Virus record (IMG/VR): IMGVR_UViG_3300010033_000090
Location: 13,072-77,071 of that record
DNA length: 64,000 nucleotides
Strand: one strand, 5' to 3'
Origin: a virus
Below, piece by piece: positions 50,434-62,871 of the stretch. The position numbers were made by a program, and so were the translations under genes. Numbering within the stretch: position 1 is the stretch's first letter; the number at the start of each line of letters is the position of its first letter. A model generated the notes under the pieces. That model did not search any database, had not been told where the DNA came from, and worked only from the letters and a program-made list of their open reading frames with translations.

Positions 50434-52697
50434 ATGAGTACTTTTACTAGTCAATTGGAAATAATCAACGACATGGCCACCTGTGCCCTATCTCAATTGA
50501 TAGAGAAACATGGTCAGCAATCAGAATTTTCAAATACCAAAGCTTTGAAAATTACTGATTCGAAATTCAACTATAATCTGGATGGCGGTCGGTGGTTATA
50601 TGAAATTACCAACAGAGTATTGATCGATAACGAAGGACATCAATATTTTCACAACGTTCTGTCAAATGAACAATTGTTTGAGTTGATAGATCACTTGATT
50701 GAAGTACACGTAAAAAAATAACATCCCATGAAAATAACGAAACTATTCTTTGGCTTCGAAATCCATTGGAGCTTTAGATTACGCCGTGCCAAAACTGTTA
50801 ATGTATCAATCCCTGATAAGGCGGATGATACGCATTATTCTTCGACTGATAAATGTATCTACTATTGGGGCGATTGTAAGAAGCACAAAATTAAACTGCC
50901 TGATCATATTCAGGGCGAAGAACTTTTTTGTTCTGACATGTACATAAGAGATTGGAATGATGATGGAACCATGAAGTATGCAACTGACAGGTACATCGAA
51001 ATTAAATTGTATTACTAATATGGCAACACAACTATTTCAGTGGATAGCCGAAGACGGCACTACCAAAAGACAATATTCAAGTATCCTCGATCCGGCTGAA
51101 GCTTGGTTACGCGCTTGGTCTGAATGTCGAAAAGATAACGGTCAACATCTGCAAACAGTAGAAGAAAAACATGGACAAACTATCATGAGATTTTCCGAAG
51201 CTCAGGATGAATACAAAGAGATACGGGATTTCTTTTTCGATCTAAACATTCATTCACCAAAAAGTAAATTCCTAAAACTCGTTCCCGTATGGGAGCTAAA
51301 ATAAAATAAGCATGGGTTATAAAAACGAAAACCTCAGAGCCACCGATGAAGTGGTTAAAGATCACGACGAAGTTATTATCGAGCACAACGATAAATTGCT
51401 TTTATCAGGTGATAAAGATAGTATTTGTGTCATCTGGAACAACTTTGTCGGATGTAACTTTGAAGATAAAGAAAATCACCTGAATTGGCTTGACAGTGTG
51501 TACAAAAAAGCTCTTAGAGGTGAATTAACGTTGGTTGGAATCAAAAGAAAAATAAGAATAAAAAAATATCAAATTGACTGGCATGAAGAATGAACTGGAT
51601 TGACGAGTACGAAAACGAAAACAGATTAAATCCACAAACAAGAAAACCCGCTGAATATTGTACCGTCATAGTTGCTAATGGTTATAGTCAAACAGGCGGT
51701 AAGTACTGGTGGTGGATGCTCGAAGGGGAAGAGATGTTTTGTAAAATCAAACGCGACGACCGTGGCGAAATTAAAGAATACTTCCCCTGTAAATTAACAA
51801 ACTCTAAAATACTGATCGGGCGTCCAATCCTCGCCCAGGAATGTATCATGATTTAGTGTTATTCGATTAGCACTATCTCACTCAGGCCAACAGTGCCAAC
51901 AAAAGAAGGGGGCTACCCAAGCCCCCTCCCAAATTAAAAACCGTAATTCTAAACTATGGAAAAATATTCTCTGAAAAATATCCATGCACAATTTACAACA
52001 ACTAAAATTTAAAGTCAACAAACTATGGCAAAAAAAACAATTGTAGTTACACAAGCTGAAAAAGATTTGGTTGACCGAATGAAAAACACTGGTGACTATA
52101 TCGTATCCGGGGTTGGGGGAAACCTCTGGTGGGCCAACAAAAATAAGAAAGGCTGTATCTTCGAAGCTGTCAACTCTGACGACATGGCCACCCTTTGGAA
52201 GCTTCAAGAAAAAGGACTCATCAATCACGAAACTAAAACTCTTTATATCTAATATCATGACAGAATTTAAAATCGTCGCTAAATTTAAAGGTGGCACAAC
52301 GTCTACAGAAGGTGAAAAGGTTAGCAATCACTTTACGCGAAACTATCGCCAAACCGCAAACGATGAAGAACACGCCCGAAAAATATGGCTTGGTTTTTAC
52401 AGCAATGTTTCTGGTTTCATCGAAATTAAAAGCTGCAAAGAAGTCAAACCAATTCTACGAGCCAAAAACTACATGGTTATTATCACCACAGGAAGTAAAG
52501 CCTACAGCACTTCAGTTCGTGCATACAAGGTTGTGAATAATCGAAACATCTTTATTGGCGAAGATCACGGACTTGGAGAAATGGAAACAAAAGAAGGTTA
52601 CTTGGAAAAGATTTTTAAGTACAAGTTGAATTCCAAAATTAAAATTAGGGAGTTGTACAGGGCTGGTAAAATTTACATTCAGGAGATTAGATTATAA
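50434..52697 (+). other. Seven small hypothetical genes (50434, 50728, 51020, 51312, 51590, 52025, 52257)
   Basis: Dense co-oriented ORFs. Confidence 0.65.
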
Positions 52698-53460
52698 AAA
52701 AAAGGAAGGTCGCCGCATACAATGAAGACCTTCCTTACATCGATAAACCGGCATTATTGCCGTAACCCATTACAAATGTAATAGATTTATCAAAAACTCA
52801 AAATAAGCCGCCGTTGCAACTTCAAAAAATTTAATAATCACCTTATTTTGCCGAATGAATAAATCACTTGCAATAATATAAAAAGTTTGAGAATAAAAAA
52901 ACATTACTATTCAAAAAATATCTTAATTAATTAATCAGTTATTTTAAAAAATTGAAATATAGGATATTATTATTCAGATTTATCTGTAAGAGAAAAGCTG
53001 TAAAATACAATAAGGGAGCTACCGTTGCAGCTCCCTTACTCCCAGTCAACGAAAAAAACTATTAATAAATATTTTTTTATCAGCAGCAAAAATAATTAAA
53101 TAATTTGATCTACAAAAAAAGGCTGCCGTTGCAGCCTTCCCGGAAAATTTAAGCAATAAAATAACCCTGATTAGTAATTAGAATTATTTATCATCTACAA
53201 TTTAATACATTTTCAAACAAAAATAAAACGCAAGCTACCGTTGTAGCCTGCGCTAATCCTTAACACATTATTACTAAAATAATTTATCAAGCGCAAAAAT
53301 AGAAGAAAATATGATTTGGAAAAATTTAACTGAAAAATATTCGTAGCTCTTGGAATAAAAAAAAGGAACTACCGTTGTAGCTCCCTCTAAAGATAATTTA
53401 AACCGGATAAATAAATTCATTCCAAGTGGGCTACCATTACAGTAGCCCGTGATTACATTT
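52697..53460 (-). ncRNA. ORF-free cluster of 6-7 hairpin-terminated candidate small RNAs
   Basis: Hairpins at 52702, 52805, 53012, 53119, 53229, 53364 and 53428, most with a CGTT/AACG loop. Minus-strand TAnnTTTG boxes at 52773, 53087 and 53294. Confidence 0.6.
52982..53040 (+). ncRNA. Candidate tracrRNA-like anti-repeat
   Basis: ATCTGTAAGAGAAAAGCTGTAAAATACAAT-AAGG pairs with the repeat 5' end: 10-bp stem, 3-nt bulge, GCTT stem, then G-U-rich pairing out to AGAT. Confidence 0.4.
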
Positions 53461-53633
53461 TTTTGGAGTCAGGTTAACCAAAACTTGATTAAACATTTTG
53501 CTAATATAAAACATTCTAAAAATAACTACAAATGATTAAACTTATTATCGTATTTGTCGCGATCCAAATTGATGGCCAGTTAATTTACAGTGGACACATC
53601 TTAAATTAAAAAACTTAAACACACGTTTTACTA

Positions 53634-55064
53634 ATGGCAATTACCTTAACACCTGAAGAACTCTTAAAAGAGGTCAAACGCTGCTACAGAGGCTATCGCT
53701 CCAACCTTAAACGGAAAAGTATCAACTACACCAAGCACTATGAAGGTCAACTTGACGTTTATGAAGAACTTTATAAAAAAGCTGGTGGCGAATATGAAGT
53801 TTTGGATAAAGCGAAAGAAGAAATCGACGAGCTACTTGGAACTTGAAAAATGGGGGCGACAATTCCCAAAAAACCGCCCCCGATGGGCTAAGAACCCATC
53901 TGACAAATCTAATACTATGACACACAAAACTAATTAAAAAAAATGAACATCAAAGAAGGGAGTTATCTTCTCCATAAAAAGATCAAAACGCCTTGTAAAG
54001 TGATCAAGGTCGCAAATGATGAGGTAAAAGTTCTTTACATCACAATAGGTGTAGAAAAAACTTATCCGCTTAAAAAAGCACTTGAATGCCTCACTGATTG
54101 TAAAGTTAGCATCTTACAATCCATGGGAAGTCACTTAGGTAAAATGGTTGGCGATGCTGCTATAGGATTGGCCGATCATACTGATCAGGACATACAATCT
54201 TTTAAAGATTACATCTATGAGTTCAGAAATCAAGAAGATTAAATCACATTTTAAAAACAAAACTAATGGCTTGTAGTGAAAAATTAGTTACAGAACTTAA
54301 AAAAGAATTGCAGGACATCGTAGATCAGTGTACTTCTTTGTTAGAATCAGCTCCCGATCCTAAAATGGATTATGGTGTTACCAAAAAGTATTGGATTGAA
54401 AATGCAAGAGACACGCTTGATTCAATCAAATTGTAACCAACAAAAAAGGGCACAAGGCCCTTTCTAATTTAAAGCAGAACGGTAATTGAAAAAAAGGGGC
54501 TACCGTTATGCCCCTTCTGGTAAAAACATTTTCTGGACGATTATCAATAGTTAATATTAAATAATCACTGCAAATATATAATAATACTTAATAGAACAAA
54601 CACGAAACGTCGTGTTTTAGATACTCAGTGGATAAATAGCTTGTATATTTGTTCCCGTTTTGTCCATCGAATGAGTATCGCCGGGGGAGTATGTGACATG
54701 TATACTCCCCTATTTTTAACTCTTCACTCCTGTAAAATAAATACTCATGGCACACGCAATCGAATGGCATCAGGCACAACAAGTGCAAATTGAACAGCAA
54801 AAAAATAAAATTGAACAGCAACAAAAATACATAAAAGAATATTTGGAAAGTGATCATTCTATGATGGATGCAAAAGATCTTGAACACTATTTGACTGCAA
54901 CGGGAAAACCACTCTCATGGTTACTGGAAAATGCAAATAATTTAAGCTCACTCATTGCAGAACCGTTGGCAGCAGGACATACACTCGATGAAATTATGGA
55001 TGTCGATCCACACCCCGTAAGTGATCTTGACTTACTTTGGAAACAAGTTACACGATGTTGGTGA
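53634..55064 (+). other. Small hypothetical genes (53634, 53943, 54266-54436 not in the ORF track, 54747)
   Basis: Plus-strand ORFs separated by hairpin cassettes. Confidence 0.6.
54494..54578 (-). ncRNA. Small-RNA cassette
   Basis: -7 box TATATTTG (54571-54578), then hairpin AAGGGGC..GCCCCTT plus U-tract on the minus strand. Confidence 0.5.
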
Positions 55065-61864: not shown

Positions 61865-62121
61865 AGGGAACCCGTCATTCAGATTCCCTTTATTTTCTAA
61901 GCAAAAGATTACTATTTTGAAAATATTCAAACAAAACATGTTCGGTGTTAAAAGGCTACCTTACTTTTGCTAATTAAAATAGGGGGACAAATTTATGTGC
62001 CCCCCGTTTAATCGGCTTAACACCAATTAAGCAACAACGTGACTATTTTCAAAGTCACATTAAAGTTGCCATCACTTCACATTAAATAATAGAGCAACAA
62101 AACTAATAAAATTATTGAATC

Positions 62122-62604
62122 ATGGAATACTTTCGCACAAATGAAGCAAATAAAAACACAGTAAAATTAAAAGGTGTAGGTATGGTCTATGGTACCTTAG
62201 TAAATGATTTAAAAGTTGGTGATACCATTATCTCCGACTACGAAGAAGTAAGCATTGTCGAAAAAATTATTAATAAAAGTCCCAGTTACCTCTATGTTAT
62301 TGTAACTATTAATGGTAAAAAAGTTAACAAAAAACTGTTAAGAAAACGTATCATTGGACGCCCCTACCATGAATTACCTAAAATTATTAGAGAACGCGAA
62401 GATTACCCAAAAATATTTGTTAACTATGAACAATTCTATGACTGTTTTCGCGTCTTCTCTGAATTAAAAGAACATCTAAAGCTCAAGTACTACAAGTACA
62501 CTTTTCTTAAATTATTCAAAAAATACCAGGGACTGGAATTGAATCATCAAGATGAGGCCATAGCATTTTTGAAGAAAAATCGATCCAAACTTTTGAAGAC
62601 ATAA
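62122..62604 (+). CDS. Hypothetical protein
   Basis: 160 aa, A-rich start. Confidence 0.6.
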   Translation: MEYFRTNEANKNTVKLKGVGMVYGTLVNDLKVGDTIISDYEEVSIVEKIINKSPSYLYVIVTINGKKVNKKLLRKRIIGRPYHELPKIIREREDYPKIFVNYEQFYDCFRVFSELKEHLKLKYYKYTFLKLFKKYQGLELNHQDEAIAFLKKNRSKLLKT

Positions 62605-62871
62605 AAAAGTGGTGTAAGCAATCCAAGAAACTTACACCACTTTTCGTCAAATTGGACAACACTATTCAACTATACCTATACCCAATTCAAAAGTAATTTA
62701 AATTATTATATTTGCAAACTTTTTAAAAAAAAGCTGTAGGCATGGGATTCCTACAGCTTTGGGAAACTCGCATGTAATAAATGCGAAACTCATGGTAACA
62801 GTGGCGAAATAAACCAAAATAATTTAAATGTCCAAAAAATATATTATTAAAAACCAAAATTAAACCATTAA

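What the first reader, a model, noticed from the sequence alone, without database searches (positions are those of the whole stretch)
52697..62695. Family of ~10 small-RNA cassettes: host-type promoter, 35-55-nt U-rich variable region, conserved CAACGG-loop terminator
Seen: minus-strand TAnnTTTG boxes lie a consistent 37-59 nt from a GC-rich hairpin, usually with a U-tract. Promoter/hairpin pairs are 52773/52702, 53087/53012, 53294/53229, 54571/54494, 55144/55072, 58522/58451, 59244/59163 and 62688/62604. Many hairpins share GCTAC-CGTT-GTAGC or a close variant. Seven hairpins are packed into an ORF-free 760 bp (52.7-53.46 kb). The same layout occurs on the plus strand at 14082-14173. The cassettes I translated have no meaningful ORF. 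Their variable regions are complementary to A-rich sequences resembling Bacteroidota translation-initiation regions (e.g. CTAACTAAAATCTAATCTAAAA, AACCTTGAACTTTATGAACC). Inference: a modular antisense sRNA library with a shared protein-binding or stability hairpin, for silencing host or phage mRNAs.
Basis: partly seen in the sequence, partly recalled or inferred. Interest (0 to 1): 0.75.

Follow-up and report, generated by a model that had tools for sequence, protein, structure and literature searches.

The report
Phage cluster of host-style small-RNA genes
A large Bacteroidota phage carries about twenty tiny stand-alone RNA genes wedged, in reverse orientation, between its protein genes; several resemble the host's FopS regulatory RNAs that block translation start sites, and one matches the start of a phage gene exactly over 14 bases, so this is a large new example of a known kind of regulator.

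Summary
All long ORFs there are on the plus strand. The minus strand nevertheless holds about 20 intrinsic terminators, and 13 of the window's 26 have a Bacteroidota -7 box 25-120 nt upstream (3.6 expected). Six to nine carry the full TTTG-N17-21-TAnnTTTG promoter.

Seven units form a paralogous family with a related 5' end and a terminator whose stem covaries while the loop AACG stays invariant. I found it nowhere else in what I searched.

Three other units have Rfam FopS as their best family, all below threshold. At least five start with a FopS-type 'G, U-run, CAU' anti-start-codon 5' end. The 5' end of unit 53932 is perfectly complementary over 14 nt to the start-codon region of phage gene 56137-57591 (0 of 300 and 0 of 400 shuffles).

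Best reading (confidence 0.6): stand-alone Bacteroides-type sRNAs that pair with translation start regions. Expression and all targets are inferred; no relatives could be fetched.

The tracrRNA-like plus-strand reading and the Cas12a-repeat reading are not supported.

This scan has already reported FopS-like sRNA genes in many other Bacteroidota phages, so I class this as a new variant of a known kind.

The parts
51898..52001 (-). FopS-like unit: TTG-N18-TATTTTTC promoter-like site, single-stranded 5' region starting AUAUUUUUCCAUAGUUUAGAAUU, terminator hairpin 51930-51904
   Evidence: Rfam RF04319, 28.5 bits against a gathering score of 56. The centroid fold leaves the 5' region unpaired, z -2.1. 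Sequence read.
52696..52802 (-). Unit U52780: full consensus promoter 52802-52773, 5' hairpin, terminator 52736-52702 with a U8 tail
52794..52900 (-). Unit U52877, CAACGG family: -7 box TATTATTG (one mismatch) at 52878-52871, 5' end GAUUUAUUCAU, terminator 52822-52805
   Evidence: Model R1 scores 53.6 bits, but this unit is in the training set.
53003..53116 (-). Unit U53094, CAACGG family: full consensus promoter 53116-53087, terminator 53040-53009
   Evidence: Fold z -5.0.
53109..53225 (-). Unit U53225, CAACGG family: terminator 53141-53116; which -7 box is used is uncertain
53221..53301 (-). Unit U53301, CAACGG family: -7 box 53301-53294, terminator 53254-53227
   Evidence: Fold z -4.2.
53355..53520 (-). 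Unit U53515: hairpin 53450-53426, then a CAACGG terminator 53388-53361; promoter unclear
   Evidence: Model R1 scores 35.4 bits, E 4e-4, and this unit was not in the training set. Fold.
53842..53954 (-). Unit U53932, FopS-like: full promoter 53954-53925; RNA starts GUGUCAUAGUAUUAGAUUU; two hairpins followed by a U-tract. The seed is complementary to the start region of gene 56137.
   Evidence: Rfam FopS is the best family, 21.4 bits. 15 nt are identical to natural FopS copies. 14 nt are perfectly complementary to the start region; 0 of 400 and 0 of 300 shuffles reach this. Fold z -3.2 with the seed unpaired.
54443..54600 (-). Unit U54578, CAACGG family with a UAACGG variant loop: full promoter 54600-54571, terminator 54518-54492, second terminator 54465-54443 abutting the stop of the plus gene at 54436
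55066..55174 (-). Unit U55151: full promoter 55174-55144, 5' hairpin 55133-55118, terminator 55097-55072 abutting the stop of the plus gene at 55064
   Evidence: Fold z -4.8.
55219..55336 (-). Unit U55336: -7 box 55336-55329, 5' end GUUUUUUUUCAUUAAU, GC-rich hairpin 55260-55225 with no clear U-tract, so the 3' end is uncertain
   Evidence: 13 nt are perfectly complementary to the start region of gene 7688; 7 of 300 shuffles reach this.
55405..55558 (-). Unit U55533: full promoter 55558-55526, 5' end GUAUUUCAUUAAUGG, terminator 55441-55411
   Evidence: 13 nt are perfectly complementary to -15..-3 of gene 58060; 2 of 300 shuffles reach this.
56128..56143 (+). Predicted target site: start-codon region (UAAUACUAUGACAC) of plus gene 56137-57591 (484 aa, function unknown)
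   Evidence: Protein searches found only weak matches to PHROG 463 and 25722.
58443..58552 (-). Unit U58529, CAACGG family: -7 box 58529-58522 (TTG at a 19-nt spacing), terminator 58478-58449 abutting the stop of the plus gene at 58446
   Evidence: Fold z -6.3.
59069..59151 (-). Unit U59136: GAACGG-loop terminator 59100-59076 abutting the stop of the plus gene at 59072; 5' region UUUUAGAUUAGAUUUUAGUUAG; weak -7 box
   Evidence: Rfam FopS 22 bits. Model R1 22.5 bits. Fold.
59154..59273 (-). Unit U59251: -7 box 59251-59244, terminator 59188-59161
59307..59480 (-). Unit U59472: long structured RNA with an internal AACG-loop mini-hairpin (59441-59428) and terminator 59336-59313; promoter unclear
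61976..62105 (-). Unit U62105: -7 box 62105-62098, three hairpins, terminator 62005-61982. A further minus-strand terminator lies at 61894-61860, overlapping the last bases of the plus gene that ends at 61864.
62598..62718 (-). Unit U62695: full promoter 62718-62688, back to back with a plus-strand -7 box at 62707; terminator about 62644-62604, overlapping the stop of the plus gene at 62604
62724..62883 (-). Unit U62862: promoter 62883-62855 overlapping the start of the plus gene at 62872; terminator 62760-62730; antisense to the possible 5' UTR of that gene
14082..14177 (+). A single plus-strand unit of the same layout: TTG-N19-TATATTTG, then terminator 14137-14169
   Evidence: Fold z -4.7.

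Best explanation
The cassettes are stand-alone genes for small non-coding RNAs of roughly 55-155 nt, of the type known from Bacteroides. Host RNA polymerase with its primary sigma factor would start at the TTTG/TAnnTTTG promoters on the minus strand. The transcript would have a mostly single-stranded, U-rich 5' region, sometimes with a small 5' hairpin, and would end at an intrinsic terminator that also protects the 3' end.

The 5' end acts as a seed. It pairs with the start-codon region of target mRNAs and blocks ribosome loading, as shown experimentally for FopS and GibS in B. thetaiotaomicron.

At least five units begin with a FopS-type 'G, U-run, CAU' anti-start-codon sequence. Unit 53932 is predicted to silence phage gene 56137-57591. 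Units 55533 and 55336 are predicted to act on genes 58060 and 7688/58584.

Seven units are a phage-specific paralogous family with a shared 5' motif (UGAUAAAUUAUUU-like) and an invariant AACG terminator loop. Their targets are unknown and may be in the host.

The neighbouring plus-strand genes mostly lack host-type promoters. The RNAs may therefore be made in lysogens or very early in infection, holding chosen phage genes, and possibly host genes such as SusC-type transporters, translationally silent.

Shown here: the promoter and terminator anatomy and its statistics, the paralogy, the stem covariation and the seed complementarity. Inferred: transcription, pairing in vivo, the regulatory outcome and its timing.
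For: Anatomy and statistics:
- 16 full consensus promoters against 4.8 expected, mostly on the minus strand of this region.
- Minus-strand terminators in strong excess.
- 13 of 26 terminators have a -7 box 25-120 nt upstream, against 3.6 expected.
- A 760-bp stretch with no ORF over 48 aa holds six tandem promoter-terminator units, in which the U-tract of one terminator supplies the -33 TTTG of the next promoter.
- Predicted folds are an unpaired 5' region plus a terminator, z -2.1 to -6.3.

Paralogy:
- A covariance model built from 6 units finds a 7th that was not in the training set, at 35 bits.
- 8 of 11 stem pairs show compensatory double changes, while the loop AACG and the G that follows it are invariant in 9 copies.

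Link to FopS:
- FopS (RF04319) is the best Rfam family for 51967-51898 and 53925-53842, and is among the matches for 59132-59069. All three matches span the full length of the model.
- Unit 53932 shares 15 identical nucleotides with natural FopS copies taken from Bacteroidales genomes.
- FopS has the same architecture and mechanism, and the paper notes a copy in a phage (PMC11697453). Genuine FopS copies are present in phage records.

Predicted targets:
- 14 nt of perfect complementarity between the 5' end of unit 53932 and -7..+7 of gene 56137. The next best of 93 start regions and 465 interior windows is 8 nt. 0 of 400 and 0 of 300 shuffles reach 14.
- Units 55533 and 55336 have 13 nt each; 2 and 7 of 300 shuffles reach this.
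- All three seeds lie at the predicted 5' end of the RNA.
Against: - There are no expression data.
- No related phage could be fetched, so all conservation and covariation evidence comes from paralogues within one genome.
- All three FopS matches are far below Rfam's gathering score (21-28 bits against 56).
- 16 of 19 seeds have no start-region match above chance, and seeds as a group pair with phage start regions no better than with gene interiors.
- The six exact complements of the FopS seed that precede long ORFs, among 30 loci from the sampled Bacteroidales genomes, belong to varied genes, none of them SusC.
- The 14-nt match could be a relic of a duplicated gene start.
- Several units have imperfect or unclear promoters: 51967, 52877, 53515, 59136 and 59472.
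- Many terminators abut the stop codon of a plus-strand gene, so they may serve that gene as well.
Confidence: 0.6

Rival explanations
1. The hairpins are gene-end terminators that also insulate plus-strand genes from antisense transcription. The minus-strand promoters are fortuitous or divergent partners of plus-strand promoters in AT-rich spacers, and the short RNAs are by-products with no function of their own.
For: - Many hairpins start 3-9 nt after a plus-strand stop codon or overlap it: 54443, 55072, 58449, 59076, 61860 and 62604.
- Some have an A-run on one side and a short U-run on the other, for example 58449-58478.
- The plus strand is A-rich (AT skew +0.1 to +0.2), which favours T-rich motifs such as TAnnTTTG on the minus strand.
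- Three minus-strand promoters sit back to back with plus-strand -7 boxes: 54578/54644, 55533/55576 and 62695/62707.
Against: - Six units stand in tandem in a 760-bp stretch with no plus-strand gene to protect.
- The promoters match the full two-box consensus at the correct spacing, far above chance, and are coupled to terminators.
- The whole unit, including promoter and 5' region, is paralogous in 7 copies.
- The 5' ends carry FopS-like seeds, and one has a 14-nt start-region match.
- On the plus strand most hairpins lack a U-tract.
Confidence: 0.2
2. The functional strand is the plus strand. Either the A-rich tract, AAGG and CGUU-loop hairpin is a tracrRNA-like or Cas9-related scaffold (the candidate at 52982-53040), or the GCUAC-NNNN-GUAGC hairpin imitates a Cas12a repeat as an RNA anti-CRISPR.
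For: - The phage has a CRISPR array. A relative carries Cas9 with two tracrRNA copies that have the same promoter-RNA-terminator layout.
- Plus strand 53002-53015 reads AAAATACAATAAGG, the end of the repeat followed by AAGG, and a hairpin follows.
- The inner stem CUAC/GUAG equals that of Cas12a repeats (from my own knowledge).
- Phage-encoded single-guide and scaRNA-like RNAs are now documented (10.64898/2026.06.01.729453).
Against: - The duplex of the candidate with the repeat (-19.6 kcal/mol) is matched by many unrelated sites outside the arrays.
- The 15-nt similarity to the relative's tracrRNA has E = 2, and the tracrRNA scaffold shares nothing with the CAACGG hairpins.
- There is no consensus plus-strand promoter and no U-tract on the plus strand.
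- No array spacer or handle matches the cassettes.
- The stems run 9-14 bp and lack the AAUU...GUAGAU flanks of a Cas12a handle.
- The hairpin motif was found only as scattered single copies in other genomes. That pattern required an adjoining A-run, so a CRISPR array carrying the motif could have been missed.
Confidence: 0.05
3. The units are mobile regulatory cassettes, comparable to the promoter-stem-loop (PeSL) elements of T4-type phages. Their main role would be to offer recombination sites for shuffling accessory genes.
For: Seven paralogous copies are partly dispersed (54.5 and 58.5 kb) and sit at gene boundaries in a region of small accessory genes. PeSL elements are known to me from the literature; this was not checked here.
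Against: - The promoters point away from the downstream gene, opposite to the PeSL layout.
- Copies are only about 50% identical outside the core, which is poor substrate for homologous recombination.
- This would not explain the invariant loop with covarying stems or the seeds.
Confidence: 0.07
4. The cassettes encode very small peptides, or are the antitoxin RNAs of type I toxin-antitoxin pairs that share a terminator with a convergent toxin gene.
For: - The convergent gene/sRNA layout with a shared terminator resembles the TxpA/RatA and BsrG/SR4 loci of Bacillus prophages (from my own knowledge).
- A few short ORFs exist, for example 26 aa in U55533 and 39 aa at 62698-62817.
Against: - The short ORFs are not conserved between units, run through terminators and match no PHROG family.
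- The neighbouring plus-strand proteins are 56-484 aa, mostly soluble-looking and not small hydrophobic toxins.
- The tandem array has no partner genes.
Confidence: 0.03

Closest known systems
FopS (family of paralogous sRNAs, Rfam RF04319) and GibS of Bacteroides thetaiotaomicron (PMC11697453)
   Same: - Multicopy sRNA genes with canonical Bacteroides primary-sigma promoters.
- A single-stranded 5' seed followed directly by a Rho-independent terminator, about 70 nt in all.
- The seed is antisense to the start-codon region.
- Units 51967, 53932 and 59136 give full-length FopS matches, and unit 53932 shares 15 nt with natural copies.
- The paper already notes a copy in a Bacteroides phage.
   Different: - All matches are below the gathering score.
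- Unit 53932 lacks the U-run of the R1 seed and has two 3' hairpins.
- Most units have unrelated 5' regions.
- Seven belong to a separate family not found in 302 sampled Bacteroidota genomes.
- The one strong predicted target is a phage gene, not a susC mRNA.
- RbpB binding is untested.
Antisense RNAs of temperate phages (lambda OOP, P22 sar, P1/P7 c4); from my own knowledge
   Same: Short RNAs with their own promoter and terminator, transcribed against the flow of neighbouring genes, that block translation of a phage gene by pairing at or near its ribosome-binding region.
   Different: - Those phages have one or two such RNAs, and these are mostly cis-antisense. Here there are about 20 units.
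- The predicted target of unit 53932 lies 2.2 kb away, so it would act in trans.
- The target protein has only weak similarity to an anti-repressor PHROG (E 4e-5) and cannot be called an antirepressor.
Phage-encoded CRISPR-derived small RNAs: RNA anti-CRISPRs, viral single-guide RNAs and viral scaRNAs (10.64898/2026.06.01.729453)
   Same: Stand-alone phage RNA genes with a promoter, a variable 5' part and a structured 3' part ending in a terminator. This phage also carries CRISPR-derived RNAs.
   Different: The cassettes contain no repeat, anti-repeat or tracrRNA scaffold.

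Membership tests
FopS sRNA family (Rfam RF04319) | Score at or above the Rfam gathering threshold (56 bits) | tested here: not met
   28.5, 21.4 and 22.0 bits for 51967-51898, 53925-53842 and 59132-59069. 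In the same searches genuine copies in Bacteroidales genomes score 45-67 bits, two of the four above the threshold.
FopS sRNA family (Rfam RF04319) | R1/R1' seed (GUGUUUUUCAUGGUAUUAGAUUUAAGG-like) at a single-stranded 5' end | tested here: inconclusive
   Unit 53932 has GUGU-CAUAGUAUUAGAUUU, with 15 nt identical to natural variants, and the seed is unpaired in the fold. Units 51967 and 59136 match only in part. Units 55336, 55533 and 52877 share only the 'G, U-run, CAU' start.
FopS sRNA family (Rfam RF04319) | Canonical Bacteroides primary-sigma promoter and a Rho-independent terminator about 40 nt after the start | tested here: met
   TTTG-N18-TAGTTTTG lies before unit 53932. Terminators with U-tracts are present. 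FopS genes in other genomes have the same layout.
FopS sRNA family (Rfam RF04319) | Binds RbpB and represses translation of susC-like mRNAs | not testable with these tools
   Known only from experiments (PMC11697453). The host is unknown. The six exact seed complements that precede long ORFs in the sampled genomes did not precede susC genes.
Intrinsic (Rho-independent) terminator | GC-rich stem-loop followed directly by a U-tract on the transcribed strand | tested here: met
   Met on the minus strand for about 20 sites. On the plus strand the same hairpins mostly lack a U-tract.
Type II tracrRNA | An anti-repeat pairing with the CRISPR repeat better than background, followed by a nexus and terminator hairpins, on a transcribed strand | tested here: not met
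   The duplex at 52971 (+) is -19.6 kcal/mol, equalled by many sites outside the arrays. There is no plus-strand promoter or U-tract. Nothing resembles the scaffold of the relative's tracrRNA. The phage's own tracrRNA lies outside the window and could not be fetched.
RNA anti-CRISPR / solitary CRISPR repeat (including the Cas12a handle) | Near-identity to a CRISPR repeat of the host or the phage | tested here: inconclusive
   There is no similarity to the phage's own repeat. The hairpin motif occurs only as scattered single terminators in 185,579 species genomes, but the pattern required a flanking A-run and could miss arrays. The host is unknown.
Promoter-stem-loop (PeSL) shuffling cassettes of T4-type phages | A stem-loop followed by a promoter oriented towards the downstream gene | tested here: not met
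   The promoters point towards the upstream gene, on the opposite strand.

The most novel reading that the evidence does not exclude
The invariant AACG loop on covarying stems is a handle for a dedicated RNA-binding protein, from the phage or the host. The seven-member family would then be a protein-assisted, modular silencing system. New specificities would arise by swapping the 5' seed on a constant promoter-and-hairpin chassis. This would be a phage-borne counterpart of Hfq-type sRNA scaffolds in a phylum that lacks Hfq and ProQ. It would work alongside FopS-like RNAs that tune the phage's own operon.
Probability: 0.12. Interest if true: 0.8.

Novelty: new variant of a known kind. Interest (0 to 1): 0.5.

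Why it matters
Phages are usually credited with at most a few small RNAs. To my knowledge (not checked here), about twenty in 12 kb would be among the largest sRNA sets proposed for any phage. Several are modelled on a host family that controls nutrient-transporter translation.

The finding offers a concrete, testable pair: unit 53932 against the start of gene 56137. It also offers a seven-member family whose conserved loop may point to an unknown RNA-binding partner in Bacteroidota, a phylum whose sRNA biology is still thinly charted.

It also shows that the host-type promoters in this region mostly drive RNAs rather than the neighbouring protein genes. That bears on how such phages are transcribed.

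Tried and rejected
The phage's own Cas9 and tracrRNA locus and its close relatives could therefore not be fetched.

Searches for relatives:
- Protein searches found nothing: viral contigs and tblastn against phage records.
- The portal's nearest relatives are distant: 46.6% identity to MT835500.1 and 33% to Bacteroides phages of the DAC16 group. Those records lack such cassettes and lack FopS matches.
- The one metagenome scan, using the CRISPR repeat, gave a relative (L009) with Cas9 and tracrRNAs. It shares no proteins with the window and has no CAACGG units. The other hits were chance matches.

Searches for the hairpin motif and the family:
- The motif hit only coding sequence by chance in viral contigs, and only scattered single terminators across many phyla in species genomes.
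- Model R1 had no match in 151 Bacteroidales genomes, 151 genomes of the order of a Ferruginibacter genome, or 5 others.
- A phylum-wide BLAST of the tandem array gave only chance-level short hits.
- Rfam at gathering thresholds and tRNA scans found nothing.

Readings tested and rejected:
- No array spacers or handles match the cassettes.
- The tracrRNA-like plus-strand reading is indistinguishable from chance.

Target searches:
- The first energy-based script timed out.
- BLAST and duplex scans showed no general enrichment for phage start regions.
- The match of the 51967 seed to gene 36076 (11 nt, -18.8 kcal/mol) is not significant: 30 of 400 and 85 of 300 shuffles reach it.
- Exact complements of the FopS seed in Bacteroidales genomes are mostly FopS genes themselves, and the six that precede long ORFs are not susC.
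- The function of the target protein 56137 remains unknown.

Full report
**Setting.** The window is part of a large Bacteroidota phage. It encodes a portal protein, a terminase large subunit interrupted by a Hint/intein domain, a Bacteroidota-type tyrosine integrase and a RadC-like protein, and a cytosine methyltransferase. The portal's nearest relatives in phage records are distant: a faecal phage contig at 46.6% identity, then Chryseobacterium phage MA9V-3 and Bacteroides phages of the DAC16 group at 33-35%. From about 27 kb to 64 kb every long ORF is on the plus strand. The plus-strand proteins at 51-64 kb look like ordinary small phage proteins.

- On the minus strand of 51.9-63.9 kb I count about 20 hairpins followed by U-tracts, against 3 on the plus strand.
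- On the plus strand the same hairpins are preceded by A-runs and mostly lack a U-tract. They are therefore oriented against the genes.
- The two-box Bacteroidota promoter TTTG-N17-21-TAnnTTTG occurs 16 times in the window against 4.8 expected. Nine copies are on the minus strand of this region.
- Thirteen of the 26 minus-strand terminators have a -7 box 25-120 nt upstream, against 3.6 expected. A distant relative shows no such coupling.
- The stretch 52.7-53.46 kb has no ORF over 48 aa, and its short ORFs match no PHROG family. It holds six tandem units, in which the U-tract of one terminator provides the -33 TTTG of the next promoter.

**A real paralogous family.**
- Alignment of the CAACGG-loop units shows more than a shared hairpin. 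They share the promoter and a related 5' end, UGAUAAAUUAUUU-like.
- A covariance model built from six units finds a seventh that was not used for training (53355-53432, 35.4 bits). It finds 59069-59151 only weakly.
- Across nine hairpin copies, 8 of 11 stem pairs show changes on both sides that keep pairing. The loop AACG and the following G never vary.
- The model found nothing in the relative L009, in 151 Bacteroidales genomes, in 151 genomes of a second order, or in five further Bacteroidota genomes.
- The bare hairpin motif occurs elsewhere only as scattered single terminators in many phyla. As far as searched, the family is specific to this phage.

**Link to a known family.**
- A permissive Rfam scan returned FopS (RF04319), the Bacteroides 'family of paralogous sRNAs'. 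It was the best family for 51967-51898 (28.5 bits) and for 53925-53842 (21.4 bits), and it was among the matches for 59132-59069 (22 bits). All three matches span the full model on the minus strand, and all are below the 56-bit threshold.
- The published FopS architecture is a canonical promoter, a single-stranded 5' seed and a Rho-independent terminator. The seed pairs near the start codon of susC-like mRNAs and blocks translation, and RbpB counteracts this. The authors note a copy in a Bacteroides phage (PMC11697453).
- I recovered genuine FopS genes from Bacteroidales genomes and found copies in four phage records.
- Unit 53932 starts GUGUCAUAGUAUUAGAUUU. Fifteen of these nucleotides are identical to natural FopS variants, and the seed is unpaired in the predicted fold.
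- Units 55336, 55533 and 52877 also start with 'G, U-run, CAU'.

**Predicted targets.**
- As a group, the seeds pair with phage start regions no better than with gene interiors.
- Three units stand out when I measure the longest perfect complement to any of 107 start regions:

| Unit | Target | Perfect run | Shuffles reaching it |
|---|---|---|---|
| 53932 | gene 56137-57591, -7..+7 | 14 nt | 0 of 300; 0 of 400 |
| 55533 | gene 58060, -15..-3 | 13 nt | 2 of 300 |
| 55336 | AAUGAAAAAAAAC starts such as gene 7688 | 13 nt | 7 of 300 |

- For unit 53932 the next best start region or interior window reaches only 8 nt.
- In all three cases the pairing nucleotides are the first 14 of the predicted RNA, where FopS-type seeds lie.
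- The 484-aa target protein has no clear function. It gives only weak matches to PHROG 25722 (unknown function) and to an anti-repressor PHROG.
- The 14-nt identity could also be a relic of a duplicated gene start. It is, however, placed directly behind a full consensus promoter.

**Rival readings.**
- Because the phage carries CRISPR-derived RNAs (and earlier notes of this scan), I tested a Cas9 link. A relative, L009, has a 1353-aa Cas9 and two tracrRNA copies. Their scaffold shares nothing with the cassettes, and no spacer or handle matches the cassettes.
Its duplex energy with the repeat is equalled by many unrelated sites, and the plus strand there has neither promoter nor U-tract.
- Pure 'insulating terminator' and 'shuffling cassette' readings do not explain the tandem array that has no genes, the paralogy of whole units, or the seeds. 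The terminators may still also serve the plus-strand genes they abut.

**Verdict.** The most likely explanation is a set of about 20 host-style sRNA genes: a phage-specific seven-member family, three to five FopS-like anti-start-codon RNAs, and several single units. Expression, targets in vivo and any role of the AACG loop are inferences.

The kind is known. FopS has been published, with a phage copy noted, and this scan has already reported FopS-like sRNA genes in many other Bacteroidota phages. What differs here is the number of units, their strict orientation against all neighbouring genes, the separate paralogous family with an invariant loop, and one statistically strong predicted target within the phage.

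Noticed in passing
window 37904-37922 and 38661-38679 (+): Two hairpins carry the tRNA T-arm sequence GGTTCGATTCC-like directly after plus-strand genes, yet ARAGORN finds no tRNA in the window.
   Followed up: no
window 54644-54746 (+): A plus-strand -7 box (TATATTTG) is followed by a 13-bp hairpin with a U-rich tail (54683-54711), just ahead of gene 54747-55064. It looks like a leader or attenuator and is one of only three plus-strand terminator-like sites in the region.
   Followed up: no
window 55875-58063 (+): The proteins at 55875, 56137 and 57566 share a recurring short motif (Y/F-x-D-x-x-E-Y-x-H-D-L-x-x-L-K). This suggests one small repeated domain of unknown function across three adjacent genes.
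   Followed up: no
window 52025-52697 (+): The 201-aa GTG ORF 52092-52697 is probably not the real gene. An ATG ORF at 52025-52252 and a second starting at ATG 52257 fit the sequence better.
   Followed up: partly
window 9159-11267 (-): The terminase large subunit is interrupted by a Hint / homing-endonuclease-associated intein domain.
   Followed up: no
L009 (Ga0126339_10000005, contig bases 42553-56950): This unrelated-looking phage contig has the same CRISPR repeat, a 1353-aa Cas9, two near-identical tracrRNA copies with consensus promoters (about 6620-6730 and 8105-8215), degenerate handle-only repeats and tRNA-like sequences at 5800-6130.
   Followed up: partly
window 59734-59752 vs 22156-22174: A 19-nt identical stretch (TTACATTGTCAAAAAAAAA) is shared between gene 59583-60092 and the guide-like array region. 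It could be a guide target or chance.
   Followed up: no
phage records PQ571285.1 (Bacteroides phage BX-TP2), MT836368.1, MT836359.1, MT837453.1: These phage records contain matches to a genuine FopS sRNA gene (77-91% identity, covering 41-82% of the query). None is annotated there.
   Followed up: no
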